Shown here in pieces: positions 4,196 through 29,334 of a stretch of DNA of 57,424 nucleotides. Position 1 is the first letter of the stretch, and each line of letters opens with the position of its first letter. The stretch comes from Candidatus Woesearchaeota archaeon (GTDB lineage: Archaea; Nanobdellota; Nanobdellia; UBA10117; ARS21): positions 1 to 57,424 of the forward strand of contig JABIPN010000006.1 of assembly GCA_018698915.1 (NCBI GenBank), written 5' to 3'. Position numbers and translations under genes: made by a program. The notes below the pieces were generated by a model. That model had not been told where the DNA came from. It saw only the letters and a program-made list of their open reading frames with translations, and did not search any database.

Positions 4196-4277
4196 AGTGG
4201 TGCTTCCTATTTAGTTTTATAACTATTATGAAACAAAAGATAAAAGCGCTTATTAATGTTTTCAGTTATGTACTGGC

Positions 4278-8485: not shown

Positions 8486-8577
8486 CTCAGTTGGTGACGC
8501 ATGTGGATTTAAAAGTTTAATTAAACTAAGTTCGATAAAAGATAATTTGCTAAAATTTATAAGTCTTAGATTATTTC

Positions 8578-9462: not shown

Positions 9463-9478
9463 ATCTTGAGAATTAATT

Positions 9479-14635: not shown

Positions 14636-14679
14636 AGTTCGATTTTGTATATTGTTTTATATTGTTTGTGGAACTGAAT

Positions 14680-16104
14680 TCAGTTGTTGTCCGTAGAATT
14701 AATTATTTTGTTTATTACGTCAGTGGTTGACTTTCCTTCAACCAGTTTTACTATCTTTACTTCTCCACCATATTTGTGAACTGTTTTTGTTTCTGGTAAA
14801 TCTTCGGCGTTGTAATCTCCACCTTTAACATGAATGTTTGGTTGAAGTTGGTTGAGTAATTCTTCTGGTGTGTCTTCGTCAAATAGCACAACATAATCTA
14901 CTGTAGCTAAGTTTGCTACTATCTCTGCACGTTCTTTTTGATTATTGATTGGTCTATTATCTCCTTTGCGTCGTTTTGTTGAACTGTCAGCATTTATTGC
15001 TAAAATTAAAATATCTCCGAAAGATTTTGCTTTGTTGAGTAGCCGTATGTGTCCAACATGTAATATATCATATATTCCGTTTGTTGTGACTATTTTATTT
15101 CCTTTAGCTTTTAGTTTCTGAACAATTTGTAATAGTTCTTCTCTTGTTTTTATTTTTGAATTAATACCCTTGAACGAAGATTTTAACTCAGTTAAAGTGA
15201 GTGTTGCAGTTCCGAATTTACCGACCACAATGCCTGCCGCTTGATTGGCAATTTGTGTTGCTTCGTATAATTCTGCTTTCGATGCTAATGCGAGAGTTAA
15301 GATTGCAATAAATGTGTCTCCTGCTCCCGAAACATCATATACTTCACGTGCTTTTGCAGGTAAATGATTGTATTCGTTATTTTCTTTATTATAGGATGAT
15401 GTTCCGTTTGGCCCTTGTGTGATTATTACATTAGTATTGTATTTCTCTGATATTATTTTTGACAGTGTTTCAGGATTTGAGTTTGAGTTCGTTATTTCTT
15501 GCGCCTCTTTTGTGTTTGGAGTAACTACAAATACATTTTTGAATAAATTTATTGTATTTGGTTTAGGATCTACAATAATCAATATATTTAATTTTTTCAG
15601 TTCTTCAACTAATTCTTTTGTAATCATTCCTTTGTCATAATCCGATAATAGAATCATATCAAATTGATTTGATTTTATGAATTCAATAATCTTTGTAACG
15701 TGTTTTGATTTCAAAGGTTTTGGATCTTCGAAATCTACTCTCAACGCTTGCTGGTTCTGTGCAACTAAGCGAGTTTTCTTTATTGTTGTGAAATCGTTTC
15801 TCTCGATTAGAAATGTGTTTATGTTTGCTTTCTTGAACAGCTCTAGCATTGGCTCTTTAAATTTATCATTTCCAACTTGTCCAATTACTGTGCACTTTGC
15901 TCCTAGTGCTGCAACGTTGTTTGCAGTGTTTGCTGCGCCACCGAGTCGGTGTTCTCTGTTGTTGTTTGAAACGTTGAGTACTGGCACGGGTGCTTCAGGA
16001 TTGATTCGGTTTATGTTTCCGAACAAGTATTCATCAAGAATTAAATCTCCGATTACAAGTATATGTTTCTTTGGGAATTCCTGAATGGTTTCAATTAGTT
16101 TCAT
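14680..16104 (-). CDS. hldE: Bifunctional D-beta-D-heptose 7-phosphate kinase / D-beta-D-heptose 1-phosphate adenylyltransferase
   Basis: N-terminal pfkB/ribokinase-like domain (GGAANTANN, DVSGAGDTF). C-terminal cytidylyltransferase-like domain (TNGIYDILHVGHIRLL). 474 aa, RfaE/HldE architecture. Confidence 0.85.
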   Translation of the reverse strand: MKLIETIQEFPKKHILVIGDLILDEYLFGNINRINPEAPVPVLNVSNNNREHRLGGAANTANNVAALGAKCTVIGQVGNDKFKEPMLELFKKANINTFLIERNDFTTIKKTRLVAQNQQALRVDFEDPKPLKSKHVTKIIEFIKSNQFDMILLSDYDKGMITKELVEELKKLNILIIVDPKPNTINLFKNVFVVTPNTKEAQEITNSNSNPETLSKIISEKYNTNVIITQGPNGTSSYNKENNEYNHLPAKAREVYDVSGAGDTFIAILTLALASKAELYEATQIANQAAGIVVGKFGTATLTLTELKSSFKGINSKIKTREELLQIVQKLKAKGNKIVTTNGIYDILHVGHIRLLNKAKSFGDILILAINADSSTKRRKGDNRPINNQKERAEIVANLATVDYVVLFDEDTPEELLNQLQPNIHVKGGDYNAEDLPETKTVHKYGGEVKIVKLVEGKSTTDVINKIINSTDNN

Positions 16105-16681
16105 TTACTTTGTAGATTACGTGATCAATTAACTCACACCAAATATGTATTATGTTGATGTGAGCTTCCTGTATTCGTGCGGTTGTGTTTGATGGAATAA
16201 TTAAATTTGAATCTAAATTTAGTTCACTCATTGTTCCGCCAGACCTTCCATTGAGACAGATTGTTTTTAATCCTCTTTCCTTTGCGATTTCGAATGCTTT
16301 GTGGACATTCTTTGAGTTTCCAGAGGTTGTGATTCCGACCAATACATCTCCTGGTTTTCCCAATCCTTCAACTTGTCTTGAGAAAACATAGTCATAGCCA
16401 TAATCGTTTGATGCTGCAGTTACTGCTGATACGTTAGAAGAGAGTGCAATCGCCGGAATGCTTGGTCTCTCTTTGTTGTAGCGAATTACTAACTCTGCTG
16501 CGAAGTGTTGTGCATCTGCTGCTGAACCTCCATTTCCACAAGTTATTATTTTGTTTCCATTTTTCACAGCCTCGAGAATTAGTTCTCCCGCCTCGACTAT
16601 TTGATTTAGATATTTACCGTCCAATAGTTTTTGTTTTGTTTCAATTGATTCCTCTATAAATTCTCTTGCTATATTTTTCAT
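16091..16681 (-). CDS. gmhA: Sedoheptulose-7-phosphate (phosphoheptose) isomerase
   Basis: SIS domain: ITCGNGGSAADAQHFAAELV, GITTSGNSKN. 196 aa. Overlaps hldE (14 nt) and the GT9 gene (4 nt). Confidence 0.85.
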   Translation of the reverse strand: MKNIAREFIEESIETKQKLLDGKYLNQIVEAGELILEAVKNGNKIITCGNGGSAADAQHFAAELVIRYNKERPSIPAIALSSNVSAVTAASNDYGYDYVFSRQVEGLGKPGDVLVGITTSGNSKNVHKAFEIAKERGLKTICLNGRSGGTMSELNLDSNLIIPSNTTARIQEAHINIIHIWCELIDHVIYKVNETN

Positions 16682-17829
16682 CTTTTGGTTCTCCTTTTTT
16701 GTTTGTATATTAACTTTTCAGCGTTTCGAAATACCTCATTAACAGTGATTTTCTCCATCCAGTTTTGTGTGGGTCGTTTGAAACTTCCTAAATGTGGATT
16801 AATAACTGGTGTTTCTTTTGATTTGTAAAGTGAGAGGTTGTTTTTCCCGTATGGTGCATATCTTACTGGTGTATTCGGTCCAAACAGTCCAATCGTTTCG
16901 GTTCCTTGTGCTGCTGCAATGTGTAGCGGTCCAGTATCGTTTGAAATGTAAATGTTACACTTTTCTGTGAGTTTGAATAGTTGTTTTAGTGAGAATTTTC
17001 CTGCGAGATTGTAAACGAACTCTTTTTGTTCCATTTGATTGATTATTCTTTCAATGTAGTTTCGTTGGTTTTGTATGTCCGGCATTAGAATGATTGCATT
17101 GTGTTTTTTGATTAGTTTGTCTGCAAGTTGTGCAAATTTATGTGGTGACCATCGTCGCCAGGTTGCAGTACCTGCACTTGTTACTGTCATTCCAATTATT
17201 GGTCTGTGTTTTGGAAGTTTATTGAAAAAGTTGTTTACTTTTCTTTTGTCTGATTTTGAGTATTTTAATGTTATTAGTTTATCTGGTACTTTTGGTTTTA
17301 TTTCTAGAGGTTTGAGTAAATTTAGAAATGTGTTGACTGCATGAATTTTGTCGTTGTAATAGACAAGTTGGTCATATAACTTTGCCCGTGGACCGTGTGA
17401 AAATCCAATTGTTTTCTGTGAAAGATAGTTTGATAGTAATGCTGAGAGTTTTAGATAAGGTTCTAAGTCAAATGCTAAGTCATATTTCTTATATTGTTTT
17501 GTGAGCGTTAGTATGTTGTGTAGTTCAAGTAACTCTATGTTGTCAATGAAGGGTTGATTCTCATATACTGCTTTGTTTTGATTCCGGCATAAAATTGTAA
17601 CTTTTGTATTTGGATAGTTTTGTTTGAATTGTTTAATTAATGGTAAAGTTAGTACTGATTCACCAATGGCCCATAGTTTTGTGAATAGAACTTCTTCCGG
17701 AACTGCGTTCCTTCGTCTCTTCAAAAGTGAGAGTGCATTGATTAGTGGAGTTCCAATTGTTTTGTCTATTCCTCGTTGTAAACTAAGCATTTTGTATTTT
17801 ATTTGCTGCATCAAGCAAATCCTCTGCAA
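16678..17829 (-). CDS. GT9-family glycosyltransferase (ADP-heptose-dependent heptosyltransferase-like)
   Basis: ISNDTGPLHIAAAQGTETIGLFGP is the GT9 (WaaC/WaaF-type) C-terminal signature. It sits inside the heptose operon. Start may be Met14 (17790), reducing the overlap with gmhB. Confidence 0.75.
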   Translation of the reverse strand: MQRICLMQQIKYKMLSLQRGIDKTIGTPLINALSLLKRRRNAVPEEVLFTKLWAIGESVLTLPLIKQFKQNYPNTKVTILCRNQNKAVYENQPFIDNIELLELHNILTLTKQYKKYDLAFDLEPYLKLSALLSNYLSQKTIGFSHGPRAKLYDQLVYYNDKIHAVNTFLNLLKPLEIKPKVPDKLITLKYSKSDKRKVNNFFNKLPKHRPIIGMTVTSAGTATWRRWSPHKFAQLADKLIKKHNAIILMPDIQNQRNYIERIINQMEQKEFVYNLAGKFSLKQLFKLTEKCNIYISNDTGPLHIAAAQGTETIGLFGPNTPVRYAPYGKNNLSLYKSKETPVINPHLGSFKRPTQNWMEKITVNEVFRNAEKLIYKQKRRTKR

Positions 17830-18310
17830 TAAATGTTGGATTTGAGTTGGATTCTGGATCTTTCTCGGAGCTTCCTGTTGTTACGAGCACAGATTTTAGT
17901 CCAGCGTTGTTTGCAAGTTCAATGTCTGAAGATCTGTCACCGATAACATATGAGTTAGCCTTATCAAAGTCGGGTGTGAAATAGGGTTCAATTAGTTTTG
18001 TTTTGGGTTTTCTACAGTCGCATTCTTTTTGTGGAGTGTGTGGACAGAATAGAACTTTGTCTATGTTGATATTTTCTTGTTTCAATTCATTAATTAAGTG
18101 ATTGTTGAATTCATGCATTTGATCTTCAGTATAGTATCCTCTTCCGATTCCTGATTGATTTGTTACAATTATTAGTTTGTATCCTTGCGATTGTAGCTTT
18201 TTTAGACCGTTACTTGTGTTTGGTAGAAGGTTGTAATCTCCCACTTTGTTTGTGTATCCGTCGTCCTTATTTAACGTTCCATCTCGGTCTAGAAATATAA
18301 TTTTATTCAT
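17783..18310 (-). CDS. gmhB: D,D-heptose 1,7-bisphosphate phosphatase (HAD-IIIA)
   Basis: FLDRDGTLN, VTNQSGIGRG, Zn-site CPH..C.CRKPK, GDRSSD. 175 aa. Confidence 0.8.
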   Translation of the reverse strand: MNKIIFLDRDGTLNKDDGYTNKVGDYNLLPNTSNGLKKLQSQGYKLIIVTNQSGIGRGYYTEDQMHEFNNHLINELKQENINIDKVLFCPHTPQKECDCRKPKTKLIEPYFTPDFDKANSYVIGDRSSDIELANNAGLKSVLVTTGSSEKDPESNSNPTFIAEDLLDAANKIQNA

Positions 18311-19119: not shown

Positions 19120-20322
19120 ATGTTTGAAGTTATCCTTAGTGTTGTTATTGGTTGTTTGTTAGGTGTTGTGACTGGATTAATCCCTGGGCTACATACTAAT
19201 ACTATTGCTTTAATGTTGATGAGTGTTTTATTGAGTGGTTGGTTTAGCTTAAGTGAGACTTTGTTTGTGTCGGGTGCCGTATGTATGTTAGTTGTTCATT
19301 CATTTGTTGATTATATTCCAAGTATATTTTTGGGTGCACCAAATTCAGATACTGCGCTTAGTGTATTGCCCGGACATCGGTTGTTATTGAAAGGTGAGGG
19401 ATATATCGCGCTTCGTGAAACTGTTGTTGGTGGTATAAATTCATTTTTGATTGGAATTCCGTTCTTAATTCTTTTTGGGTGGTTTATACAAAATTGGTTA
19501 GATTTTATTAAATTGTTTGTTGCGCCCGTTTTGTTAATCCTTACTACTTGGTTAATTTTAAGTGAGTCTTCATTAAAGAAAATATATTGGGCAATGCTAA
19601 TTTTTATTTTTGCAGGTGTATTGGGTTTGCTTACTTTGAATACTAGTATTGTAAAAGATCCATTATTTCCTTTATTGAGTGGATTCTTTGGAATTAGTAT
19701 ACTTTTGTTTAGTATGGGTGAAAAAAGTCATGTTCCAGATCAGAAAATTAGTGAAAGCTTTAAATTATTTAGTAGAGAAAACACATTCTTAGGATTTATT
19801 AGTTTGTTTGCAAGTAGTTTGATGGTTTTGTTTCCTAGTTTGGGTCCGACACAGAGTGCTACAGTTGCTCAAGCAGTCATGAAAAATAGTTCACAGAAAA
19901 AATTTCTTAATGTTATGGGTGGAATTAATACTTTAGACGTACTTTTCACACTTGTTATGTTGTATTTGGTTGGCTCAGCACGAAGTGGAGTTCTTGTTGC
20001 AGTTCAACAATTATTTGAAGTTACTTTTGATATATTTTTGGTTATGTTAATCTCTTTAGTTATTGGGTTGGGTTTCGGAACAATGGCTTGTTTGTATATT
20101 GGAAAACGAGTTGGAAAAATGGTTTCAAAAATTAATTACAAATTAGTTTCAATTAGTGTTATAATATTTTTGTGTTGTATGGTATTTATTATCTCGGGAA
20201 GTTGGGGGTTATTTCTTATGAGTGTTTCTACATCAATTGGATTGGTTTCACAAATTATGGGTGTTAAAAAAGTTCATGCTATGGGTGTTTTAACTATACC
20301 TACAATTCTTAATTTTAGTTAG
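19120..20322 (+). CDS. Polytopic membrane protein, TctA/DUF112-like
   Basis: About 10 TM segments. GLIPGLHTNTIALML resembles the TctA-family N-terminal motif. The ORF opens at TTG 19102; ATG 19120 is preceded by TATA-like TTTAATTA at 19088-19095. Confidence 0.5.
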   Translation: MFEVILSVVIGCLLGVVTGLIPGLHTNTIALMLMSVLLSGWFSLSETLFVSGAVCMLVVHSFVDYIPSIFLGAPNSDTALSVLPGHRLLLKGEGYIALRETVVGGINSFLIGIPFLILFGWFIQNWLDFIKLFVAPVLLILTTWLILSESSLKKIYWAMLIFIFAGVLGLLTLNTSIVKDPLFPLLSGFFGISILLFSMGEKSHVPDQKISESFKLFSRENTFLGFISLFASSLMVLFPSLGPTQSATVAQAVMKNSSQKKFLNVMGGINTLDVLFTLVMLYLVGSARSGVLVAVQQLFEVTFDIFLVMLISLVIGLGFGTMACLYIGKRVGKMVSKINYKLVSISVIIFLCCMVFIISGSWGLFLMSVSTSIGLVSQIMGVKKVHAMGVLTIPTILNFS

Positions 20323-20846
20323 ATATCAAAACTTATTGAATTTCTTCTCTGTTTATCAATTAGTTCAGTTCCTTCTTTTGTTAAATAATATTTCTTTGGT
20401 CTTGCACCAGTCCCATTAATAAATCCTCGATATTCTAGTTCAAGTAATTTATTTCTTATTGTTCGTTCTGATTTCTCCAATCCGTATGCTAGCTTTAGTT
20501 GCGTTGGCGATACTGCAAAGAATGTTGAATCTGCCTTTCCTTGTTGTAATAGGATCAAATATTGTAAATCAGACAAATTGAATAATGTTGGTTTAATTGT
20601 AGCAATTGGTTGCCGATGATTTTGTGTTGGTGCGTGTTGTTTTGGAAATTCGTTTGGAAATTCGTTTTTCCAATTACCTCTACTTTCCATTATTTTTTCC
20701 AATAGTTTTTCGTTGTTTTCTTGTAGTTTTTGCACTTTTTGTTCTAGTTTTTTTATAATTGAGTCTCGGTCGTAAATCCTTGATTTAAGTTGTTCTAGGT
20801 CACTTTTGTGATCATTTAGAATATTTCGAACAGACTTCGGAATCAT
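20319..20846 (-). CDS. Coiled-coil plus C-terminal winged-helix DNA-binding protein (unknown family)
   Basis: Heptad-rich N-terminus (LEQLKSRIYDRDSIIKKLEQKVQKLQENNEKLLEKI), Q/P-rich linker, C-terminal wH-like SERTIRNKLLELEYRGFINGTGARPKKYYLTKEG. Confidence 0.5.
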   Translation of the reverse strand: MIPKSVRNILNDHKSDLEQLKSRIYDRDSIIKKLEQKVQKLQENNEKLLEKIMESRGNWKNEFPNEFPKQHAPTQNHRQPIATIKPTLFNLSDLQYLILLQQGKADSTFFAVSPTQLKLAYGLEKSERTIRNKLLELEYRGFINGTGARPKKYYLTKEGTELIDKQRRNSISFDI

Positions 20847-20867
20847 TATTCTATTAACTCATTATTG

Positions 20868-20875
20868 TATAAAAA
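20868..20875 (-). promoter_or_regulatory. TATA-like box of the coiled-coil/wH gene
   Basis: TTTTTATA on the minus strand, 22-29 nt upstream of the ATG at 20846. Confidence 0.4.
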
Positions 20876-20884
20876 GATTTATTG

Positions 20885-20927
20885 TTTGAAAAATCTTTCC
20901 AGTGTTTTTTCCACAATTTTCCAATTG
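20885..20927. repeat. Copy 1 of a ~40-bp direct repeat made of TTTCCA half-sites
   Basis: tttgaaaaatctttccagtgttttttccacaattttccaattg aligns with 21027-21066 at roughly 85% identity with two small gaps. Confidence 0.8.
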
Positions 20928-20941
20928 ATTACCCTAAAGAT

Positions 20942-20963
20942 ACCCCTTCATTTCCAATGGAAC
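20942..20963 (-). other. Origin-recognition-box (ORB)-like element, full dyad plus G-string
   Basis: The minus strand reads GTTCCATTGGAAATGAAGGGGT. This is the TTCCA-n-TGGAA dyad followed by GAAAT..GGGGT, the pattern reported for Orc1/Cdc6 binding sites in archaeal origins. Confidence 0.55.
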
Positions 20964-21026
20964 TTATTTTAAATATGTATACATTGAGCCTATCAGTTTA
21001 ATTTTGTCCAGTTTGTTTGGAAAAGT

Positions 21027-21066
21027 TTTGGAAAAATCTTTCCAATGTTTTCCACTAATTTCCAAT
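21027..21066. repeat. Copy 2 of the ~40-bp TTTCCA direct repeat
   Basis: tttggaaaaatctttccaatgttttccactaatttccaatg. It overlaps the last codons of the Cas4-like ORF. A further TTTCCA follows at 21068-21073. Confidence 0.8.
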
Positions 21067-21795
21067 GTTTTCCAGAGAAGTTTGGACCTTTATTTGATTG
21101 TTTTTGTCCGTATCTTTCTTATTAAAACAAATATCATAGAATTCGCAATAATTGCATAAGTAAGACTCCTCTCTAGTAGGAGGTGTTTTTGTTTTTAGTG
21201 CATTTGAAAGAACGGTGCCTCTTGCTTCCAAATAACCACTCATATTTCTTTTTTCTACTTCAAATACTTTTATTTTACTTAGTGAGAAATAAACAATAAC
21301 TAATTTCTTTACTTCTTTTTGTTTTGATTCAGAAAGCATTGAGAAGTAAGATTGTACTTGCATAGTATGGGCAAGTTTTGGTGATTTAGGAATGCGCTCA
21401 ATTGTTTTGAACTCATACATTACATTATCTGAAAATACATCAATGAATCCTATTGCTGAAAAATTTACAAAGGGGAGTTCCAAGAATACTTCCTGTTCAT
21501 CTTCAGGAATATGATCTTGAAAGAAATTATGAATTGCGTGTCCTCTTGAAAAAATCCACAGCTTTTCTAACGAAATTGGCACTTCCTCCACCAACCCATA
21601 ATAGGAATTTCTTAAACAATGTGAAGTTAATCGCGTTACACCAAATCTTGGTTTTTTGTTTGGATCTTTCTTTTTTCTTGGTTTTTGTCCCGCAAGTAAT
21701 GCTGCAAGAACTACTCTTGGGTAGTTTTCGAACTCAGAGTTTTTTACTTCAGCGATATCTCTTACTACACCATCAGGACATAATATTTTAGTCAT
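21055..21795 (-). CDS. Cas4/Dna2-type PD-(D/E)XK nuclease with a 4-Cys Fe-S cluster (no CRISPR context)
   Basis: N-terminal Cys (TSHCLRNSYY), GHAIHNF, IGFIDVF (Asp), YEFKT (E-x-K), QVQSYF (QxxxY), C-terminal CNYCEFYDIC (C-x2-C-x5-C). 8-nt overlap with the PolD large-subunit gene. Confidence 0.7.
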   Translation of the reverse strand: MTKILCPDGVVRDIAEVKNSEFENYPRVVLAALLAGQKPRKKKDPNKKPRFGVTRLTSHCLRNSYYGLVEEVPISLEKLWIFSRGHAIHNFFQDHIPEDEQEVFLELPFVNFSAIGFIDVFSDNVMYEFKTIERIPKSPKLAHTMQVQSYFSMLSESKQKEVKKLVIVYFSLSKIKVFEVEKRNMSGYLEARGTVLSNALKTKTPPTREESYLCNYCEFYDICFNKKDTDKNNQIKVQTSLENIGN

Positions 21796-24700
21796 TGATA
21801 AAATCTCCCAGTCCTATTTGTTTTGTTGCATCTCGTCCAAAAACAGATTCTATTCGGCTATTGAATAAATTTATGGATTCTCTTAAGTATTCACTTGTTC
21901 CTTCAATTTTAATTAGTTGTAGGGTTGGTTCAAGATATTTCTTAACTGAACCTTCACTTATTGTGTAAATTACTTTTTGTTTTCCACAATTTAAACATTT
22001 TCCTGCTAGAGGTATTCTTCGATATTTTTCATTACAAGCAACGCATCTAAATCGTTGCATTGTAAATTTACGCATGTTTCCTTTAAGATCTCGAATAAAA
22101 TGTCCAGTTATTATTAATTCTCCAACTTTGTTGAGATCTACCGCCCTTATTTTTCTTGCGAGTTCTATTTGTCCTTCCATCTTCTCAACCATCGTAGGTA
22201 AATATTTGTAAGCTGATACATTTACTCCCTTATTCATATTTGATACTGAGTGTGTGAATCCATGATTTTGATATTGTTCTTCCTTATCGACTACGTCTCC
22301 AATTGATTTTACTTTTGAATCCCACGGATATTTCATTTCTAATGCTGCATTATAGAAATCTAACGAGTATTCCCAGGCTATGTTTAAATCATAAACTTCA
22401 TCATCAACTTCTTTTGAATTTAGTATTGTTGAAATAACTAATGGTGCATCCATACTTCTTGCGCCTCTTCGATCTGGAAGAAAGTCTCGTGAAAAATTAA
22501 GAAATGCGTCTAATACTAACATTATTGCAGTTTCTTCACCATCTAAATCTCTTCGCTGTGCAGCATGCCACATTGGATGTGCTAAAATTGCAGCTATATT
22601 TGAAAATCCGATAATTCTTCCTACAATTCCCGCAGAAGTATGTGGTGCTAGACCTATAACTAGTTGTCCTATTAGATCTGATTCAATAGCGATATTGTAG
22701 TGTGCAGAGATATTGTAGAGATTTACTAATGACTCATCAACAAAATCTGCAACGCGTTTTAAAACTGCTCCTGCAGATTCAATACCTAATGAGCTTTCGC
22801 TCGGTAATATTATATCTTGAGGAAATATTTCTACAAGTTGAGTTTTTTCAGTTAGTTGTTGTCCTTTGAAATCGTGCGTATATCCTAATTTATGTGCTTT
22901 TTTTATCGATAGACCAATTTCCTCAGGTGTGAAGTGTGTTGTTCCTAGTTCTGTTGCATCATACCTGACAGTTCCATCCTTATTAACCCTCAAAGAATGT
23001 TTTGCTCGGAGTACTCCTTTGACTGGATGTTCAACATAACGAAACTTGTTCATTGTTTCTCTTACACCTTTTATTAATTTTGGAAATTCACCTTCCCAAT
23101 TAGATCTTATGTTTTTTGATAATTTGGGTAATTCATACTTTCTTCTTTCATATGCAACACACTTTGGAGTTTCAGGTGAAGTGTATTTTTTCTTCGTAAA
23201 ATAATCAATATATTGTTGTTGCGTGTTTAGAGAATTACAGTGTTCACATTTTGTGAATATTGTTCTTTTTTCACAGTCAAGACATTTTATTATTGGAAAC
23301 TCTGCGGTAATGTGTCCTTTCTTTATTGATTCATTGAAAGATCTTAATCTTCCTCCTTCTGCTCCGACAGGGAATAAAAAATTTGGTGAACCTTTCATAT
23401 CTCTCATTTTTGCCTTCTCAGGTCTACCCATTCGTGCACCAATTCCAGTACCGAATTTTGGTCTGATTTGTATATCTTTGTTGAAAAACAATTTCAAAAT
23501 TGTTTTATTTAATTCTGTTAATATTATTTTGTTTTCTTTTATTTGGTGTGGGCATCCAATTAACTCCAATAATCTTTTTTCTGGTTGGTTTGCATTCATA
23601 TCTGTTGAGATATAATTTTTTAGTAGAATTATTTGTTTATTATCTAATGCATCAAAATAGAATGTGAAATTTGGGTGTATTGGTATTTTGAACTCTTGAG
23701 ATAATCTTAGCGCTGTTTCAAAATTAATAGTTGGAGGAATAAATTTATTGATAAAATCTTCAGTTAGATTGTGTTTTTTGTTTGGGTTGTTTTTTATTGC
23801 CTCTTTCAGTTCCAACAGCCACCATTCAGGACAATATCCTGGAGGTACTAGAAAATGCCCGTTTTCTGTGAATTCGCCTGGTGAGATTAACAAATCTCCT
23901 AAGTATAGGATCTCATCAACGTCTTTTGATATTTCTTTTGCTTCTTCTTCCGTTTCAAGTTTTACAACGGATCCGTCTTTTAGTTTAACAATTGGACCTT
24001 CTATTGAATCACAAGAAGTTAATGATGTTGATTTTCCTGGGCGTTCGACTCTTAGTTGTGTTCCAACTGCTAGAAAATTATCTAGTACTTGCATGGTGAT
24101 TGGAGATATTGCCCAAGATCCGTGACCTGTTAATCTTGATCTCCCATATCTCAATCTAAATCCTCCTTGTCGAAGTGGATGTGTGAATACGGGACGTCCT
24201 GCTACAATTTCAGCAATATATGCATAATTCGGTTTTAGTTTTGATTCTGATCCATCCTCGATTTCTTCTTTTGATGTTTTGGCGTGAATTCGCTTCTTTA
24301 TATCTTGATAATCATTTAACCATTGCCAATCCAATCCGAAATCTTTTCCCCATTCATTTAATTTCTTCATTACTTTGGCACCTTTGAGCGGTAGACCATC
24401 AGTGAGCATTAGTGCCATGCCCCCTCTAATTCTGTCGGTTGTTATTCGTTCCAGTCCTTTGTAATTTGATACTTGTAGTTGTGAGGTTGGATCTCCATCA
24501 ATTTCTACAGGTAAATTAGAAACAATAAATTCTATTTCTTCAATGGTTGGTTTGTATTGTTTTCTTTCTACGCGTTCATAATAATCTGTTACTTCTGTAT
24601 ACATTCGTTTTAATTCTTTATCAGTAGGATCGTATTTTTCAATTCCCTGTTGTATTCTAACATAATCTGCAATCACTGTTGTGACTGCCATTGCTGTTGC

Positions 24701-25183
24701 ACCGCCACCCCTGATTGGTCCAGCATAACATAGAGCCAAATATTTTTTTCCGTCTTTTCTGTCTTTTATTTTTACATCAATTAATCCTTCAAGTGGTGCA
24801 GATACTACTCCTTGTGTTATGTATGCGAATCCTGTTCTTACACCAATGCTTATTGCGGTTTGTTTATCTTCAAATTTGCATATTTTTTCTGAAGCAATTT
24901 CGTTCGCCAATACCAGTGCAACTCTCCAATCTCCAAAACCATATTCTTTTTCTAATTCGCTAATTCTTTGTACAACGCCGCTTCCAATTAAATTTGGCGA
25001 AATTGAACCCATAATTGCTTCAACTCTTTCTGCTACAGATGCAGCTATGGGAATGTCACAATTTAGTTGTGGGTCGATTCCGGTTTTTCTGGCAGTGTTT
25101 GCAATATCATGCAATTCTAAAGTTTCGGATTTTAATTCTGAGAAATACTTCTTAATTTGTGTTGAAGCAATAATGTCTGACAT
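21788..25183 (-). CDS. DNA polymerase II (PolD) large catalytic subunit DP2
   Basis: 1131 aa, colinear with archaeal DP2. Cys-rich Zn modules CLDCEKRTIFTKCEHC and CVACNEKYRRIPLAGKCLNC. Length shows no intein. Confidence 0.93.
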   Translation of the reverse strand: MSDIIASTQIKKYFSELKSETLELHDIANTARKTGIDPQLNCDIPIAASVAERVEAIMGSISPNLIGSGVVQRISELEKEYGFGDWRVALVLANEIASEKICKFEDKQTAISIGVRTGFAYITQGVVSAPLEGLIDVKIKDRKDGKKYLALCYAGPIRGGGATAMAVTTVIADYVRIQQGIEKYDPTDKELKRMYTEVTDYYERVERKQYKPTIEEIEFIVSNLPVEIDGDPTSQLQVSNYKGLERITTDRIRGGMALMLTDGLPLKGAKVMKKLNEWGKDFGLDWQWLNDYQDIKKRIHAKTSKEEIEDGSESKLKPNYAYIAEIVAGRPVFTHPLRQGGFRLRYGRSRLTGHGSWAISPITMQVLDNFLAVGTQLRVERPGKSTSLTSCDSIEGPIVKLKDGSVVKLETEEEAKEISKDVDEILYLGDLLISPGEFTENGHFLVPPGYCPEWWLLELKEAIKNNPNKKHNLTEDFINKFIPPTINFETALRLSQEFKIPIHPNFTFYFDALDNKQIILLKNYISTDMNANQPEKRLLELIGCPHQIKENKIILTELNKTILKLFFNKDIQIRPKFGTGIGARMGRPEKAKMRDMKGSPNFLFPVGAEGGRLRSFNESIKKGHITAEFPIIKCLDCEKRTIFTKCEHCNSLNTQQQYIDYFTKKKYTSPETPKCVAYERRKYELPKLSKNIRSNWEGEFPKLIKGVRETMNKFRYVEHPVKGVLRAKHSLRVNKDGTVRYDATELGTTHFTPEEIGLSIKKAHKLGYTHDFKGQQLTEKTQLVEIFPQDIILPSESSLGIESAGAVLKRVADFVDESLVNLYNISAHYNIAIESDLIGQLVIGLAPHTSAGIVGRIIGFSNIAAILAHPMWHAAQRRDLDGEETAIMLVLDAFLNFSRDFLPDRRGARSMDAPLVISTILNSKEVDDEVYDLNIAWEYSLDFYNAALEMKYPWDSKVKSIGDVVDKEEQYQNHGFTHSVSNMNKGVNVSAYKYLPTMVEKMEGQIELARKIRAVDLNKVGELIITGHFIRDLKGNMRKFTMQRFRCVACNEKYRRIPLAGKCLNCGKQKVIYTISEGSVKKYLEPTLQLIKIEGTSEYLRESINLFNSRIESVFGRDATKQIGLGDFIND

Positions 25184-25204
25184 ACTAAATTCATTATGAT
25201 GATG

Positions 25205-25212
25205 TTTAAATA
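25205..25212. promoter_or_regulatory. Single quasi-symmetric TATA element shared by two divergent genes
   Basis: TTTAAATA lies 22-29 nt from the DP2 ATG (25183, minus) and 20-27 nt from the ATG at 25232 (plus). Confidence 0.45.
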
Positions 25213-25231
25213 TGATTGTGTGAAAAAGTAT

Positions 25232-25570
25232 ATGATGAAAACGCGTGGAAGAGGTCGTCCTGCATTTAGTCCAATACGGAATAATTTAGTTGAATTGTTG
25301 TTTTTTGTTGGTGAAGGTTATGGTTATGAATTATATAAAAAATATATACAGGTTTTTCATAAAACAACTATGCGATCGGTTTATTATCACTTGAATAAGG
25401 GTGTTGAATTGGGTGTTTTTAAAATTGAAAAAATTGAAAATATTCCAGGATCTTATTCCTGGGGTGAAGGTGTTCGGAGAGTTGTATTTACTCTCGGAGA
25501 AAATGCTGAACCTAAAAAAGATACTCGAGTTTTAAAACGATTGAAGATTGTTGAAAAAAATAACCCCTGA
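25232..25570 (+). CDS. Small winged-helix (PadR/ArsR-like) DNA-binding protein
   Basis: YGYELYKKYIQVFHKTTMRSVYYHLNKGVELGVFK. The ORF opens at 25196, but Met13 (25232) gives canonical TATA spacing and a 48-bp divergent intergenic region. Confidence 0.5.
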   Translation: MMKTRGRGRPAFSPIRNNLVELLFFVGEGYGYELYKKYIQVFHKTTMRSVYYHLNKGVELGVFKIEKIENIPGSYSWGEGVRRVVFTLGENAEPKKDTRVLKRLKIVEKNNP

Positions 25571-25718
25571 GCCCTTGATTTCTACTGGAGATTTCATTTT
25601 TATATTAAATTTCATTTTTTCTCTTCTTTCTTTTCTATATTGAAAATAATAATATAATAATAAACAAATTTGATAAAAATATAAACAATAAAATAAGTTC
25701 TATAAGAAATAAAGGGGT
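25570..25718. other. Predicted chromosomal replication origin (two inverted ORB-like boxes flanking an AT-rich unwinding element)
   Basis: 25570-25591 reads TCTCCAGTAGAAATCAAGGGCT on the minus strand. 25697-25718 reads GTTCTATAAGAAATAAAGGGGT on the plus strand. Between them is ~105 bp at about 10% G+C by hand count. The orc1/cdc6 ATG lies 120 bp downstream. Confidence 0.6.
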
Positions 25719-25837
25719 AGGAGGTATTCAAAACAATCATACGTCAAAAGTACAAGCCTTAAGTATAGTGCTTTTATAAAAATATTAGCGTGTCAAGAGG
25801 ATAAATTATTTTAAGGTACATTTCTTATGGAAAGTTT

Positions 25838-27118
25838 ATGACGGATAATCAAACATCTCTTGATAAAAAATTCAAATCAGAAGAAGACAAAAAAAATACT
25901 TCTGAAACTAAGCGAGAAAGAGATGAACTTGACGATTTATTTGACGATTTTGTATCTAAAGAATCTTTATTCAAGGATAAGGATGTTTTATCTTTGCGTC
26001 ACGTTCCAAATACAATACCTCATCGTCAAAAACAAATCAAAAAACTAGGCATGATTTTAGCACCAGCTTTACGAAATGATCGACCTTCAAATATTTTTAT
26101 ATATGGTAAAACTGGAACTGGAAAAACACTTTGCACACTCCACACATTGAATCGGATTGTTGAACGAGTTAAAGATAGCGATGTTAATCTAACGTTTGCA
26201 TATCTCAACTGCAAATTAAAAAAAGTTGCAGATACTGAATATAGAATAATTGCTGCACTTGCTAAAAATTTAGGTGAAAAAGTTCCAGCAACAGGATTAC
26301 CCACAGATGAAGTATACAATATTTTTTTGAAAAAATTAGATGAAACTGAACAAGTTGTAATCTTAGTTTTAGATGAAATAGATAGACTTGTACAGAAAAC
26401 AGGTGACGAAATTCTTTACACCTTAACTAGAATTAATTCTGAACTTAAACGAGCAAAATTATGTTTAATTGGAATTTCAAATGATGTACGTTTTATTGAG
26501 AATATAGATCCGCGAGTAAAGAGTTCATTAAGTGAAGAAGAATTAATTTTTCCACCATACAATGCTCTTGAATTAAAAGATATTCTAAGTGAAAGATCGG
26601 AATTAGCGTTTACAAAAGACGTAATTAACAGCGGAGTTCTTGCAAAGTGTGCAGCATATGCAGCAAAGGAACACGGTGATGCTCGTCGTGCGTTAGATCT
26701 ATTAAGAGTTGCGGGCGAAGTTGCAGAACGCGCAGCAGCAGATAGTGTTGAAATGGAACATATACGTGAGGCAGAAGATAAAATTGAGAAAAATAGAATC
26801 TTAGAATTAGTTAAGACATTACCAAACCAATCCAAAATTTTGATATATTCAATATTTTTTCTAAACAAACAAAAACATAAACTTGAAACTGGAGAGATTT
26901 ATGAAGCATATGCTGATTTATGCAAAGTTAATGATACTTCAATTTTAACCCAAAGAAGAATATCTGACTTAATTTCAGAATTAGATATGTTGGGTTTAAT
27001 TAATGCAAGAGTAATAAGTAAAGGCAGACACGGGAGAACTCGAGAAATATATTCCACAATACCTTCAGATTTAACTGAAATAATGAGTTCGGAATTGAGA
27101 GTTGAATTAATGTTATGA
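25838..27118 (+). CDS. cdc6: Orc1/Cdc6 replication initiator
   Basis: AAA+ Walker A IYGKTGTGKT, Walker B VLDEID, sensor regions, C-terminal winged helix. ATGA overlap with the PolD small subunit gene. Confidence 0.92.
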   Translation: MTDNQTSLDKKFKSEEDKKNTSETKRERDELDDLFDDFVSKESLFKDKDVLSLRHVPNTIPHRQKQIKKLGMILAPALRNDRPSNIFIYGKTGTGKTLCTLHTLNRIVERVKDSDVNLTFAYLNCKLKKVADTEYRIIAALAKNLGEKVPATGLPTDEVYNIFLKKLDETEQVVILVLDEIDRLVQKTGDEILYTLTRINSELKRAKLCLIGISNDVRFIENIDPRVKSSLSEEELIFPPYNALELKDILSERSELAFTKDVINSGVLAKCAAYAAKEHGDARRALDLLRVAGEVAERAAADSVEMEHIREAEDKIEKNRILELVKTLPNQSKILIYSIFFLNKQKHKLETGEIYEAYADLCKVNDTSILTQRRISDLISELDMLGLINARVISKGRHGRTREIYSTIPSDLTEIMSSELRVELML

Positions 27119-28485
27119 GTAATCAAGAAATTGTAAAGAAATTATTAGATAAAGGAATCCTACCCACAGCTGAAAATATAGCTCAAGAATCCACAAATGT
27201 AACAATTGTAAAACCGCGAATTGATGATTTAAGAGCAAGAGTAAAGATTGTAAAAGAATTTGATTATAAACAGAAAAAAATCACAGCAGATGATTTCACC
27301 ACACACTACAGAGAAAGATACAAAACAATGAGGACTATATTATTTAATCGACCTGAAGCTGCATCAGCAGTATCCATTGATCGCGTAAAAGATATGCTTT
27401 CAGATGAAGATCAAGTTATTATTGGAATCGTTTCAGATGTAGCTAGAATGTATACTGGAACTGTCAAACTTATTGTGGAGGATTTAACTAGTCAGATTAC
27501 AGTCATCATATCCTCAAAAAATAATGATTTGATTGAAGAAGCTAAGTTTTTGACCTTAGATGAAGTCTTAATATTCAAAGGTCGTGTTAGAAAGGGAGTT
27601 ATGTTCTTACACGCCATCATACGACCAGATGTTCCACAGAAGAAAGAAACATTTAGTCCCGAAGAAGTTTATTCAGTCTTCTCCGGAGATATACATGTAG
27701 GTTCAAATCTATTTTTACCAAAGCAATTTTCAAATTTTATTGATTGGTTGAGTGGAAAAGTAGGAACTGAACGACAACGAGAAATTGCAAGAAAGACCAA
27801 ATATTTTTACATTCCAGGAGATCTTGTTGATGGAATTGGTATTTATCCTGGACAAGAAAAAGAACTAAAGATTACTAATTTAAGAAGTCAGTATGAAGAA
27901 TTATCAAAATTTTTATCTAGAGTTCCTGATGACAAACAAATAATAATTTGTCCAGGAAATCATGACTCTGGTGTCCGATTGGAGGAACCTCAGCCACGCA
28001 TGCAAGATTATGCAGAATCAATACTCGAACTTCCAAACGTAACAATGGTAACAAACCCGTCTTACACAAATATTCACTCAATGGATAATTATTCTGGACA
28101 AGATGTTTTAATGTATCATGGATATTCCTTTGACAGATTAATTGATCAAGTTGAAGGTTTGAGATTGGCAGGTGGTTATGAAAAAGCAGATGAAATTCAC
28201 AAGTTTTTATTGAAAAGAAGGCATTTGAGCCCATCACATAATTTGAATCTAACAATCCCTATGAAACAAGACTCACACATCATTTCACAAATTCCAGATA
28301 TAATGGTTTCAGGACATATTCATAAAGCAAATATTGGAAATTATAAAAACACAATTTCAATTTCTGGAAGTTGTTGGCAAGCAGTAACTGATTTTCAACT
28401 CAAATTTGGACACGTACCAGATCCTGGAATGATTCCAATCATAAATCTAAAAACACGAAAAGGTAGTATGCTCAGTTTCAAATAA
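27115..28485 (+). CDS. DNA polymerase II (PolD) small exonuclease subunit DP1
   Basis: OB-fold region followed by calcineurin-like phosphoesterase motifs GDIHVGS, IPGDLVDGIG, PGNHD, SGHIH. Confidence 0.9.
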   Translation: MSNQEIVKKLLDKGILPTAENIAQESTNVTIVKPRIDDLRARVKIVKEFDYKQKKITADDFTTHYRERYKTMRTILFNRPEAASAVSIDRVKDMLSDEDQVIIGIVSDVARMYTGTVKLIVEDLTSQITVIISSKNNDLIEEAKFLTLDEVLIFKGRVRKGVMFLHAIIRPDVPQKKETFSPEEVYSVFSGDIHVGSNLFLPKQFSNFIDWLSGKVGTERQREIARKTKYFYIPGDLVDGIGIYPGQEKELKITNLRSQYEELSKFLSRVPDDKQIIICPGNHDSGVRLEEPQPRMQDYAESILELPNVTMVTNPSYTNIHSMDNYSGQDVLMYHGYSFDRLIDQVEGLRLAGGYEKADEIHKFLLKRRHLSPSHNLNLTIPMKQDSHIISQIPDIMVSGHIHKANIGNYKNTISISGSCWQAVTDFQLKFGHVPDPGMIPIINLKTRKGSMLSFK

Positions 28486-28515: not shown

Positions 28516-29334
28516 ATGTTTTCATTATTCGGCTTTATAATTCATATTTTCACCTTCGCTTCAGTTCAAATTTTAGGAATATTAACTGGAATAGCCGCAA
28601 TAAGCAAACTCGAAGCAATAGACGTTGTGGCTACAGAAACATCCCTAATCGGAGTATTTTTTTCATTCGCAATAGCCTTCACACTACTATTTTTTATTTT
28701 CAGATATTCTCGAAAAGTAAATCTATTCAAATATTTTTTTTATTTACTAATAATTATTGGAAGCAAGGTTGTTTTTGAGACTTATTTTACAAATATACTT
28801 GCAAATATATTTACAATAAGTTTACTGGCACTATTTATTTTCAGCAGAAGTATAATTACTCACAATTTAGCACTAATAATAACTATTGCAGGAGTAGGAG
28901 TCACACTCGGACTAAGCTTTAGTCTTTCTACAGTATTCTTATTGCTTGGATTGTTTTCAATATATGATATTTTAGCAGTATATCGAAGTTCACATATGGT
29001 TAATATGTTTAAAGGAATGGTAAACAAAGGAGTAATTCTTGCAGTAATTATTCCCAACACCTTTAAAAAAATCACAGCAAAGTCTACTGAGTTTGAACCA
29101 GGAAAAGGTTTACTAATTCTCGGAACAGGAGATTTAGCATTTCCTCTATTGTTGGCAATCAGCGCCTTGAAATTTTCAATTATTAGCTCATGGTTTATAG
29201 CAGGAGGTGCAGTGATTGGAGCGGCAGTAGTATATTATTTATTAAATACTCAGAAATCAACGCGAGCAATGCCAGCACTTCCTCCAATTGCACTATTTAG
29301 TGTCTTAGGTTTTTTTGTAAGTTTGATGATTTAG
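28516..29334 (+). CDS. Presenilin/signal-peptide-peptidase-type intramembrane aspartyl protease homologue
   Basis: Polytopic membrane protein with the YD (SIYDILAVY), GxGD (LGTGDLAFP) and PAL (MPALPPI) motifs in the canonical order. Confidence 0.75.
   Translation: MFSLFGFIIHIFTFASVQILGILTGIAAISKLEAIDVVATETSLIGVFFSFAIAFTLLFFIFRYSRKVNLFKYFFYLLIIIGSKVVFETYFTNILANIFTISLLALFIFSRSIITHNLALIITIAGVGVTLGLSFSLSTVFLLLGLFSIYDILAVYRSSHMVNMFKGMVNKGVILAVIIPNTFKKITAKSTEFEPGKGLLILGTGDLAFPLLLAISALKFSIISSWFIAGGAVIGAAVVYYLLNTQKSTRAMPALPPIALFSVLGFFVSLMI

What the first reader, a model, noticed from the sequence alone, without database searches (positions are those of the whole stretch)
20885..21080. Best consensus ORB in the window sits inside a dense TTTCCA half-site array, 4.7 kb away from orc1
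The minus strand of 20942-20963 reads GTTCCATTGGAAATGAAGGGGT. That is a near-perfect dyad plus G-string, closer to the textbook ORB than either box next to orc1 (18/22 and 16/22 identity to them). It is bracketed by two ~40-bp direct repeats (20885-20927 and 21027-21066, ~85% identical). Together with neighbouring sequence these give 8 same-orientation TTTCCA hexamers, 2 inverted TTGGAAAA copies and the ORB dyad half-site TGGAAC within ~190 bp. I would expect well under one copy by chance at this base composition. A 10-bp palindrome ATGTATACAT (20975-20984) lies in the AT-rich centre. The region therefore looks like one of three things: a second origin, an iteron-type element, or an Orc1-controlled operator. 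It lies between the promoter of a coiled-coil/winged-helix gene and the 3' end of the PolD-DP2/Cas4-like operon. The last six codons of the Cas4-like ORF are literally built from repeat copy 2.
Basis: partly seen in the sequence, partly recalled or inferred. Interest (0 to 1): 0.75.

Follow-up and report, generated by a model that had tools for sequence, protein, structure and literature searches.

The report
Initiator box inside repeat array
Upstream of a small DNA-binding-protein gene in a marine DPANN archaeon lies a conserved control region: one binding box for the replication initiator Orc1 inside two blocks of evenly spaced TGGAAA repeats; it is most likely a regulatory satellite of the nearby replication origin, not a second origin.

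Summary
Window 20942-20963 (-) is a full origin recognition box (ORB), one of only three in 57 kb. It sits among 10 TTTCCA/TGGAAA hexamers spaced 10-12 bp apart (about 0.34 expected per 200 bp).

The source is a marine Nanoarchaeota/Woesearchaeota (DPANN) genome. The true origin is next to orc1: two inverted ORBs flank 25593-25696, the least stable duplex in the window. The array centre has no such unwinding element.

Eight lineages carry the adjacent coiled-coil/winged-helix gene (CC-wH; protein identity down to 30%). All of them have one or two ORBs on that gene's strand. In six lineages an ORB starts 115-119 nt before the ATG. All but one also have GGAAA-type repeats. Three lineages lacking CC-wH have neither element after DP2-Cas4.

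The repeats lack the TTCC half of a mini-ORB. A cluster of them recurs inside the CC-wH coding sequence, with exact shared words of 19-24 nt that differ between lineages. The best structural and sequence match of CC-wH is TubR, which binds split blocks of direct repeats upstream of its own gene.

Best reading: an operator with two binding proteins. Orc1 binds the ORB and CC-wH binds the repeats. This is an origin-linked regulatory module. Protein binding is inferred, not shown.

The parts
20942..20963 (-). Distal origin recognition box (ORB): GTTCCATTGGAAATGAAGGGGT, made of a dyad plus a G-string. The G-string points toward the CC-wH gene. The box starts 116 nt before the CC-wH ATG.
   Evidence: It is one of three ORB-like elements in the window. 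It belongs to a 31-nt inverted repeat (87%) with 25689-25719 (I1). An ORB is conserved at this site in all 8 lineages that carry CC-wH.
20896..20923 (-). Promoter-proximal repeat block. On the gene strand it reads as three TGGAAA units at -77, -67 and -55 from the CC-wH ATG. Relatives have four units plus an inverted TTTCCA at -45, giving a TGGAAA-N3-4-TTTCCA palindrome next to the TATA box. In this window the inverted partner has decayed to TTGAAA on the + strand (20886-20891).
   Evidence: A TGGAA/CGGAA site at -54 to -56 is present in all 8 lineages.
20964..21012 (.). Moderately AT-rich spacer (75.5% AT) holding the palindrome ATGTATACAT at 20975-20984. It is not a convincing unwinding element.
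   Evidence: 84th-96th percentile of duplex instability; poorly conserved. Relatives L019 and L016 have no comparable spacer.
21018..21034 (+). Two inverted units (TGGAAA on the + strand at 21018 and 21029). The second forms the palindrome TGGAAA-AATC-TTTCCA (21029-21044) with the first unit of the distal block.
21039..21074 (-). Distal repeat block: four units spaced exactly 10 bp apart, with spacers alternating acat/ttag (a 20-bp super-period). It overlaps the last six codons and the stop codon of the Cas4-like ORF.
20866..20878 (-). Likely TATA box of the CC-wH gene (ctttttatac on the gene strand), about 26 nt before the ATG. This spacing implies a leaderless or nearly leaderless mRNA.
   Evidence: Read from the sequence. 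The columns are invariant in four lineages. The promoter function is inferred, not tested.
20319..20846 (-). CC-wH gene (175 aa). It has an N-terminal long helix (residues 3-55), a disordered linker (58-85) and a C-terminal winged helix (92-170). The recognition helix SERTIRNKL is almost invariant across the family.
20643..20701 (-). Repeat cluster inside the CC-wH coding sequence. On the gene strand it reads as three TGGAAA units followed by two TTTCCA units, the same layout as the upstream blocks.
   Evidence: The cluster is conserved in six lineages. In L007, L009 and L011 it shares exact words of 24, 19 and 21 nt with the upstream array.
21055..21795 (-). Cas4-like PD-(D/E)XK nuclease gene. 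Its start overlaps the end of PolD DP2, and its 3' end is built from the repeat block.
25566..25718 (.). Canonical origin next to orc1, given for comparison. It has ORB-L (25566-25592, -), the unwinding element 25593-25696 (89% AT, least stable stretch in the window) and ORB-R (25697-25718, +). A G-string-less ORB core, TTCCATAAGAAAT, lies at 25820-25832 (-), between the orc1 TATA box and the ATG.

Best explanation
The region is the upstream control region of the coiled-coil/winged-helix (CC-wH) gene, and it is built to bind two proteins.

1. A genuine ORB binds the genome's single Orc1/Cdc6. It is a sequence paralogue of the ORB that faces orc1 at the true origin, and it has the same polarity toward its downstream gene.
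2. Two blocks of TGGAAA units on one face of the helix, each ending in a TGGAAA-N3-4-TTTCCA palindrome, plus a third cluster inside the coding sequence, bind CC-wH itself. CC-wH is a small winged-helix protein that probably dimerises through its coiled coil. Two tethered winged helices would read a 20-bp pair of units.

CC-wH thereby autoregulates its gene and may loop the promoter. Orc1 at about -116 ties expression of the gene, or assembly of the complex, to the state of the initiator.

The element is a satellite of the origin region 4.7 kb away, not an independent origin.

Shown: the sequence anatomy, its conservation, its co-occurrence with the CC-wH gene, and the absence of an unwinding element.
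Inferred: which protein binds which motif, and the regulatory outcome.
For: ORB identity:
- It is one of only three ORB-like sites in 57 kb. The other two are the inverted pair at orc1.
- It forms a 31-nt inverted repeat (87%) with ORB-R.
- It matches the Pyrococcus ORB1 core at 16/17 positions.

Conservation and register:
- All 8 lineages with CC-wH have an ORB on the gene strand.
- The ORB starts at -115 to -119 in six lineages. A second copy lies at -156/-157 in three.
- orc1's own ORB-R has the same polarity, 138-142 nt before the orc1 ATG.

Not an origin:
- The orc1-side unwinding element is the least stable stretch of the window at 40, 60 and 100 bp.
- The array centre ranks in the 77th-96th percentile.

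The repeats go with CC-wH:
- Three lineages with orc1, DP2 and Cas4 but no CC-wH have ORBs only next to orc1, and nothing after Cas4.
- The orc1-side origin has no hexamer array.
- The units lack the TTCC half that Pyrococcus Cdc6 needs in a mini-ORB (versus).
- The true G-string-less ORB core of this lineage, at the orc1 leader, is TTCCATAAGAAAT.
- A TGGAA/CGGAA site at -54 to -56 persists in all lineages while ORB cores drift (for example CATAAGAAAT, CATCGGAAAC). The CC-wH recognition helix is invariant.
- A repeat cluster recurs inside the CC-wH coding sequence. It shares lineage-specific exact words of 19-24 nt with the upstream array, against a control maximum of 12-16.
- That cluster uses TTGGAA for Leu-Glu, a spelling found in only 3 of 36 Leu-Glu pairs elsewhere in the window.

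Fold:
- The best structural match is TubR (Foldseek E 6e-4, 30% identity over 81 columns), followed by MarR-family repressors and AspA.
- TubR is also the top sequence-profile hit (E 1e-3).
- TubR binds split blocks of direct repeats upstream of its own gene and represses it (PMC6009700).

Orc1 is single-copy across the phylum (preprint 10.64898/2026.05.13.725050).
Against: - No binding experiment exists for either protein.
- The unit TGGAAAT is also the right half of the ORB dyad. In two clades the units resemble the local ORB core (CTATCGGAAAT in L011 and L018). Cooperative Orc1 binding to the array therefore cannot be excluded.
- Pyrococcus has an ORB/mini-ORB cluster inside a coding sequence (dp1), so repeats inside a gene do not discriminate between the two proteins.
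- The TubR and MarR matches are marginal and are typical of any winged helix.
- L019 has CC-wH and two ORBs but almost no hexamers.
- The shared words between coding sequence and array could come from gene conversion rather than from selection for binding.
- Only three CC-wH-less lineages were sampled.
Confidence: 0.55

Rival explanations
1. The whole element is a second Orc1-binding cluster of an extended origin region, made of one ORB plus degenerate half-site mini-ORBs. This resembles the second ORB/mini-ORB cluster inside dp1 of Thermococcales, which Cdc6/Orc1 occupies in vivo. The two clusters would bracket the small-wH/DP2/Cas4 block and build a higher-order Orc1 complex. CC-wH would be only a neighbouring, Orc1-regulated gene.
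For: - In Thermococcales, two ORB clusters flank replication genes within 5 kb and both are bound by Cdc6/Orc1 (PMC1904270).
- The hexamer equals the ORB half-site.
- In L011 and L018 the units and the local ORB core share CTATCGGAAAT.
- M. thermautotrophicus Cdc6-1 binds arrays of mini-ORBs cooperatively (cited).
Against: - The units lack the TTCC motif that is essential in Pyrococcus.
- A 10-bp head-to-tail spacing is too tight for four full-length Orc1 molecules on one face of the helix. This is inferred from the roughly 20-30 bp footprints seen in published Orc1-DNA structures, recalled from memory.
- The bona fide origin of the same genome has no such array.
- The module is absent where CC-wH is absent, although orc1 is present.
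Confidence: 0.25
2. It is an independent second replication origin (oriC2) fired by the same Orc1.
For: - A full ORB lies next to a moderately AT-rich 49-bp spacer.
- Oppositely oriented repeat units lie on the far side of that spacer.
- Archaea with several origins are known.
Against: - There is no strong unwinding element.
- There is a single ORB, or ORBs in direct orientation, never an inverted pair.
- The spacer is not conserved and is missing in L019 and L016.
- The ORB keeps a fixed register to a start codon.
- Multi-origin archaea normally pair each origin with its own initiator gene, whereas Orc1 is single-copy in this phylum.
- It lies only 4.7 kb from a canonical origin.
Confidence: 0.08
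3. It is a chromosomal, origin-proximal centromere-like site. CC-wH would be a TubR-like centromere-binding protein that coats the split repeat blocks to form a segregation or origin-organising complex. Autoregulation would be a side effect.
For: - TubR is the top structural and sequence match.
- The anatomy matches tubC: split blocks of direct repeats upstream of the binding protein's own gene.
- It lies next to the origin, as bacterial parS sites do.
Against: - No TubZ, ParA or ParM-type motor gene lies beside it, among the window ORFs run through Pfam, or in the Pfam tables of the related loci. About 22 ORFs in the window were not scanned.
- The similarity is marginal and generic for winged helices.
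- The family is tiny (28 representatives) and is absent from sister lineages, which must segregate their chromosomes without it.
Confidence: 0.1

Closest known systems
Second ORB/mini-ORB cluster in the dp1 gene of Thermococcales (Matsunaga et al. 2007, PMC1904270)
   Same: - An extra cluster of one ORB plus short repeats lies a few kb from the canonical origin, among orc1 and PolD genes.
- It is conserved across relatives.
- Part of the repeat set lies inside a coding sequence.
   Different: - In Thermococcales the short repeats are full 13-bp mini-ORBs (TTCC...GAA) and Cdc6 binding was shown in vivo.
- Here the repeats are bare half-sites in 10-bp phased blocks.
- Here the cluster sits in a promoter at a fixed register.
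- Here it co-occurs with a lineage-specific winged-helix gene.
- Binding is untested.
tubC/TubR centromere-operator of type III partition systems (PMC6009700; PDB 4asn)
   Same: - A small winged-helix protein is the best structural and sequence match.
- Split blocks of direct repeats lie upstream of the protein's own gene and cover the promoter.
   Different: - There is no TubZ motor.
- The context is chromosomal and archaeal.
- CC-wH has an N-terminal coiled coil that TubR lacks.
- An initiator box is embedded between the blocks.
- Repeat period and sequence are unrelated.
Canonical archaeal oriC (inverted ORBs flanking an unwinding element, next to orc1/cdc6)
   Same: It has the same ORB sequence class and lies in the same genomic neighbourhood.
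   Different: It has no inverted ORB pair and no strong unwinding element. The true example of this kind sits at 25566-25718 in the same window.
MarR-type autoregulated repressors and their palindromic operators
   Same: - The winged-helix fold matches.
- The TGGAAA-N3-4-TTTCCA palindrome abuts the TATA box.
   Different: - MarR proteins dimerise through helices that flank the winged helix, not through a separate N-terminal coiled coil.
- MarR operators are single palindromes, not phased arrays.
- No Pfam or NCBIfam family reaches its threshold.

Membership tests
Archaeal origin recognition box (ORB) | A dyad of the type TTCCA-N-TGGAAA followed a few bases later by a G-string (GGGG[T]) | tested here: met
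   The site reads GTTCCATTGGAAATGAAGGGGT. It matches the Pyrococcus ORB1 core at 16/17 positions. It is one of three matches to TTCYANNRGAAAYNNNGGGG in the window, and the other two lie at the orc1 origin.
Archaeal origin recognition box (ORB) | Bound by Orc1/Cdc6 | not testable with these tools
   This needs a gel-shift assay, footprinting or ChIP. It is inferred only from sequence and from the presence of a single Orc1 gene.
Mini-ORB (13-bp Orc1 site, as defined in Pyrococcus and Methanothermobacter) | Contains both conserved core motifs, TTCC and GAA, in dyad register | tested here: not met
   The array units read ...acatTGGAAAttagTGGAAA..., with no TTCC to the left of any unit. PMC1904270 reports that both motifs are needed for Cdc6 binding.
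Replication origin (archaeal oriC) | A markedly AT-rich duplex unwinding element | tested here: not met
   The centre 20964-21012 is 75.5% AT and ranks in the 84th-96th percentile of instability. The orc1-side element is 89% AT and ranks first in the window.
Replication origin (archaeal oriC) | ORBs in inverted orientation on both sides of the unwinding element | tested here: not met
   There is one ORB in the window clade and two direct ORBs in L011, L016, L018 and L019.
Replication origin (archaeal oriC) | Replication starts there | not testable with these tools
   This needs initiation-site mapping. The two candidate sites are 4.7 kb apart, too close for skew or coverage methods to separate.
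Iteron / centromere-type repeat array (tubC, parC class) | Several direct repeats at about one helical turn, split into blocks, upstream of the gene of the protein that binds them | tested here: met
   Spacings are 10-12 bp. There are two blocks of 3-4 units, with a further inverted unit in most lineages. They lie directly upstream of the CC-wH gene in 7 of 8 lineages.
Iteron / centromere-type repeat array (tubC, parC class) | A partner motor NTPase (TubZ, ParM or ParA) encoded alongside | tested here: not met
   No such gene lies next to CC-wH, among the roughly 30 window ORFs run through Pfam, or in the precomputed Pfam tables of the related loci. ORFs at 218-12949 and 53708-57361 were not scanned.
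TubR family | Significant sequence or structural similarity to TubR | tested here: inconclusive
   TubR is the top hit by both methods, but only marginally: Foldseek E 6e-4 with target-normalised TM-score 0.66, and profile search E 1e-3 at 22 bits. MarR and Csa3 winged helices score nearly as well.

The most novel reading that the evidence does not exclude
CC-wH is a lineage-specific, TubR-like origin-organising protein. It co-assembles with Orc1 on a split repeat array that has an ORB embedded in it. The resulting origin-proximal nucleoprotein complex would couple initiator occupancy to chromosome organisation or segregation, or would license or limit firing of the neighbouring origin, in a group of ultra-small DPANN archaea. 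The element would then be a working part of replication or segregation control rather than a simple promoter.
Probability: 0.15. Interest if true: 0.75.

Novelty: new variant of a known kind. Interest (0 to 1): 0.5.

Why it matters
Nothing is known experimentally about replication control in DPANN archaea. A search of the paper library for 'DPANN' together with 'origin recognition box' found no paper. The 2026 study of 208 complete Nanobdellota genomes uses orc1 only to rotate the genomes and never mentions ORBs.

This locus offers three things:
- a clear canonical origin;
- a conserved extra Orc1 box outside the origin, at a fixed promoter register;
- a candidate partner protein with a predicted binding site.

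All three can be tested with two recombinant proteins and a 200-bp DNA fragment.

If Orc1 regulates CC-wH, this would be a clean case of an archaeal initiator acting as a transcription factor on a gene linked to replication. If CC-wH and Orc1 bind together, it would point to an origin-associated factor specific to this lineage.

Tried and rejected
1. Metagenome-wide DNA pattern scan for four phased TGGAAA units. None encodes CC-wH, Cas4 or TctA. The scan says nothing about dispersal, and the pattern should have included the lineage-specific spacers.

2. The 153-bp shorter form (L008, L021, L022), which lacks the ORB and the centre, looked like a natural deletion. However, it has no differences from the long form over 2.7 kb of flanks, and other contigs break at the repeat. 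It is probably an assembly collapse across a perfect direct repeat of about 41 bp, so I did not use it as evidence.

3. IMG/VR scan for CC-wH relatives: none found.

4. Second Orc1 paralogue in the window: none found.

5. Common ancestry of the CC-wH winged helix and the Orc1 winged helix: no support (hhalign probability 0.25%).

6. Relationship between CC-wH and the small ORF at 25196-25570: none.

7. Rfam: only two tRNAs in the window and nothing at the element.

8. GC skew follows gene orientation and cannot separate two sites 4.7 kb apart.

9. Overall identity of the intergenic region (67-70%) is no higher than that of the flanking genes. Conservation is concentrated in the motif columns: 83-90% invariant against 43% elsewhere. 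That test is partly circular, because the motif columns were defined by the motif being present.

10. My first ORB regular expression was mis-specified. It was corrected.
Full report
**Observation.**
- The minus strand of 20942-20963 reads GTTCCATTGGAAATGAAGGGGT. It is unique in the window even with three mismatches allowed.
- It is 18/22 identical to the box at 25697-25718 and 16/22 to the box at 25570-25591 when aligned in register. It matches the core of Pyrococcus furiosus ORB1 at 16/17 positions (oligonucleotide printed in PMC1904270).
- Ten TTTCCA/TGGAAA hexamers lie in 20896-21074, eight on the + strand and two on the - strand. The window average is 0.34 per 200 bp (P about 4e-12), and the next densest 200-bp stretch holds five.
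- Successive units are 10-12 bp apart.
- The two flanking direct repeats are 82% identical over 44 aligned columns. The palindrome ATGTATACAT is at 20975-20984. The Cas4-like ORF ends ...SLENIGN-stop on two repeat units.

**Context.**
- The gene order is: CC-wH 20319-20846 (-), the array, Cas4-like 21055-21795 (-), PolD DP2 21788-25183 (-), a small ORF 25196-25570 (+), a 267-bp intergenic region, orc1 25838-27118 (+), and PolD DP1 27115-28485 (+).
- The rest of the window is rich in replication and repair genes: XPF and a Hef-like helicase, a topoisomerase, RadB, Cdc48, PolB, RadA and RPA.
- Relatives of the CC-wH protein come from marine metagenomes. Sources name them as a DHVE6-group archaeon, Woesearchaeota or Nanoarchaeota, so the source is a DPANN archaeon.

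**The true origin is next to orc1.**
- A degenerate ORB pattern finds exactly three sites in 57 kb: the distal one and an inverted pair at 25571-25590 (-) and 25698-25717 (+).
- That pair flanks 25593-25696, which is 89% AT. By nearest-neighbour energy it is the least stable duplex stretch of the whole window at 40, 60 and 100 bp.
- This layout is conserved in the relatives.
- A further ORB core without a G-string, TTCCATAAGAAAT, lies at 25820-25832 between the orc1 TATA box and the ATG. It is conserved and is probably an autoregulatory site.
- The centre of the distal element is only 75.5% AT, ranks in the 84th-96th percentile, and is poorly conserved.

**Comparative anatomy.** I recovered the locus from lineages whose CC-wH proteins are 75%, 63%, 43%, 41%, 38% and 30% identical to the window's.
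- In the window clade (window, L007, L009, L013, L014) the design is nearly superimposable. Read on the gene strand it runs in this order: four TGGAAA units, two or three inverted TTTCCA units, a spacer of about 60 bp, the ORB (CTCCAnTGGAAATAAAGGGGT), four TGGAAA units, one inverted TTTCCA, the TATA box, and the ATG.
- In L011 and L018 the unit is CTATYGGAAAT and there are two ORBs.
- L016 and L019 have two identical direct ORBs and fewer hexamers. L019 has almost none.
- A systematic scan shows the ORB is always on the CC-wH gene strand, with its G-string toward the gene.
- The ORB starts at -115 to -119 from the ATG in six lineages. A second copy lies at -156/-157 in three lineages.
- orc1's own ORB-R has the same polarity, 138-142 nt before the orc1 ATG. 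In the window the two are a 31-nt inverted repeat of each other (87%).
- A TGGAA/CGGAA site at -54 to -56 is present in every lineage. It usually has an inverted partner at -45, forming a TGGAAA-N3-4-TTTCCA palindrome next to the TATA box.

**Co-occurrence.**
- Three lineages keep orc1, DP2 and the Cas4-like gene but have another gene in place of CC-wH (L147, L148, L149). They have ORBs only next to orc1, and neither an ORB nor hexamers after Cas4.
- So the module travels with the CC-wH gene: the ORB in 8 of 8 lineages and the repeats in 7 of 8, against 0 of 3 without the gene.
- Within each locus of about 16 kb, and within the 57-kb window, the only other hexamer cluster lies inside the CC-wH coding sequence.

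**Which protein binds the hexamers?** Several lines point to CC-wH rather than Orc1.
- The units lack the TTCC half that defines a mini-ORB and is required for Pyrococcus Cdc6 binding.
- The genuine origin of the same genome has no such array.
- The lineage's own G-string-less ORB core, at the orc1 leader, is a full dyad.
- Head-to-tail units every 10 bp leave little room for a 45-kDa AAA+ protein at each unit (inference).
- ORB cores drift between lineages, while the TGGAA/CGGAA site at -54 to -56 persists and the CC-wH recognition helix (SERTIRNKL) stays almost invariant.
- The cluster inside the coding sequence is conserved in six lineages. It shares exact words with the upstream array that differ between lineages: 24 nt in L007, 19 nt in L009, and 21 nt in L011 (CTATTGGAAATTATCGGAAAT). 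Control comparisons reach at most 12-16 nt.
- That cluster uses the Leu-Glu spelling TTGGAA, which is rare in this genome (3 of 36 Leu-Glu pairs).

**The CC-wH protein.**
- The model (mean pLDDT 75) has a 53-residue N-terminal helix, a disordered linker and a C-terminal winged helix.
- Its best PDB match is TubR of pBM400, both by fold and by sequence profile. MarR-family repressors and AspA follow.
- TubR binds split blocks of direct repeats upstream of its own gene and represses it (PMC6009700).
- These matches are marginal, and no curated family reaches its threshold.
- The family is very small: 28 representatives among 1.84 billion proteins.

**Caveats.**
- The hexamer is also half of the ORB dyad.
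- In two clades the units resemble the local ORB core.
- Thermococcales provide a precedent for a second Orc1-bound ORB/mini-ORB cluster a few kb from oriC, partly inside a gene.
- Cooperative Orc1 binding to the array therefore remains a serious rival. No binding has been measured for either protein.

**Conclusion.**
- The element is best read as a composite operator upstream of the CC-wH gene, with an Orc1 box at a fixed register inside an array of CC-wH repeats. It is a satellite of the adjacent origin, not a second origin (confidence 0.55).
- Rivals: a pure Orc1 cluster of an extended origin (0.25), a centromere-like site (0.10), and an independent origin (0.08).
- It is a new variant of known kinds (ORB clusters outside oriC; autoregulated repeat operators of winged-helix proteins), in a phylum where origin biology is unexplored.

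Noticed in passing
window 25196-25570 (+): A small ORF (124 aa) with no Pfam or NCBIfam match lies between DP2 and the origin. Unannotated ORFs of 102-124 aa occupy the same position in L007, L009, L011, L016, L019 and L148, but their homology to it was not tested. Its last codons and stop codon (AAC CCC TGA) are formed by the G-string of ORB-L, mirroring the way the Cas4-like tail is built from the repeat block. It is unrelated to CC-wH.
   Followed up: partly
window 20643-20701 (inside the CC-wH coding sequence); L007 8151-8174; L011 8220-8240: The coding sequence for the conserved peptide LLEKxLEIxGNWKNE carries the same TGGAAA/TTTCCA layout as the upstream array. In L007, L009 and L011 it shares exact words of 24, 19 and 21 nt with that array, and the words differ between lineages. 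Either the protein's own gene holds binding sites, or the array and this piece of coding sequence exchange sequence by gene conversion.
   Followed up: partly
window 21055-21795 (-), overlapping DP2 at 21788-21795: A Cas4/PD-(D/E)XK nuclease gene overlaps the end of PolD DP2 and follows DP2 in all but one of the loci examined. No CRISPR context was seen in the neighbouring genes. In the exception (the P0079 contig) it stays with a 157-aa ORF at the CC-wH position (no DNA held, identity untested) and with TctA, while DP2 is not adjacent. This suggests a nuclease linked to replication or repair rather than a CRISPR adaptation protein.
   Followed up: partly
L008, L021, L022 versus L007, L020, L023, L024: Contigs of one population exist in a long form and a form 153 bp shorter. 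The short form lacks the ORB and the spacer and is joined exactly at the roughly 41-bp perfect direct repeat. The flanks show no differences over 2.7 kb, and other contigs (L025, L026) break at the repeat. It is probably an assembly collapse, but real heterogeneity is not excluded.
   Followed up: partly
window 25820-25832 (-): An ORB core without a G-string, TTCCATAAGAAAT, lies between the orc1 TATA box (about 25773-25782) and the orc1 ATG. It is conserved in L007, L009 and L016 and is a likely site of Orc1 autorepression.
   Followed up: partly
window 12923-18310 (-): A cluster that looks like ADP-heptose synthesis and transfer: a HAD/PNK3P phosphatase (GmhB-like, Pfam), a family 9 glycosyltransferase, a SIS isomerase and a PfkB plus cytidylyltransferase fusion (HldE-like). 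A UDP-glucose dehydrogenase-like gene follows. All but the phosphatase are annotated by synteny with L001 and L007. This is unusual cargo for a tiny DPANN genome.
   Followed up: no
window 20100-20117 (inside the 3' end of the TctA gene): Two more TGGAAA units lie 12 bp apart, about 200 bp beyond the CC-wH stop codon. A single unit is found at the matching place in L009 and L013, and none in L007.
   Followed up: partly
L018 (GCA_053535715.1) and the P0079 contig: Gene order around the origin differs between clades. In L018, DP1, DP2 and Cas4 are colinear, preceded by a truncated ORF that may be orc1 (not confirmed), and the array and CC-wH lie more than 6 kb from that ORF. In the window clade, DP2-Cas4 is inverted relative to orc1-DP1, and the 4.7-kb block is bracketed by the inverted ORBs at 20941-20971 and 25689-25719. 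This would fit an inversion between ORBs.
   Followed up: no
window 29331-31422 (-): The XPF nuclease (ERCC4 plus HhH, 218 aa) and a Hef-type helicase (483 aa) are separate, overlapping ORFs here. In the P0079 contig they are fused into one 745-aa protein.
   Followed up: no
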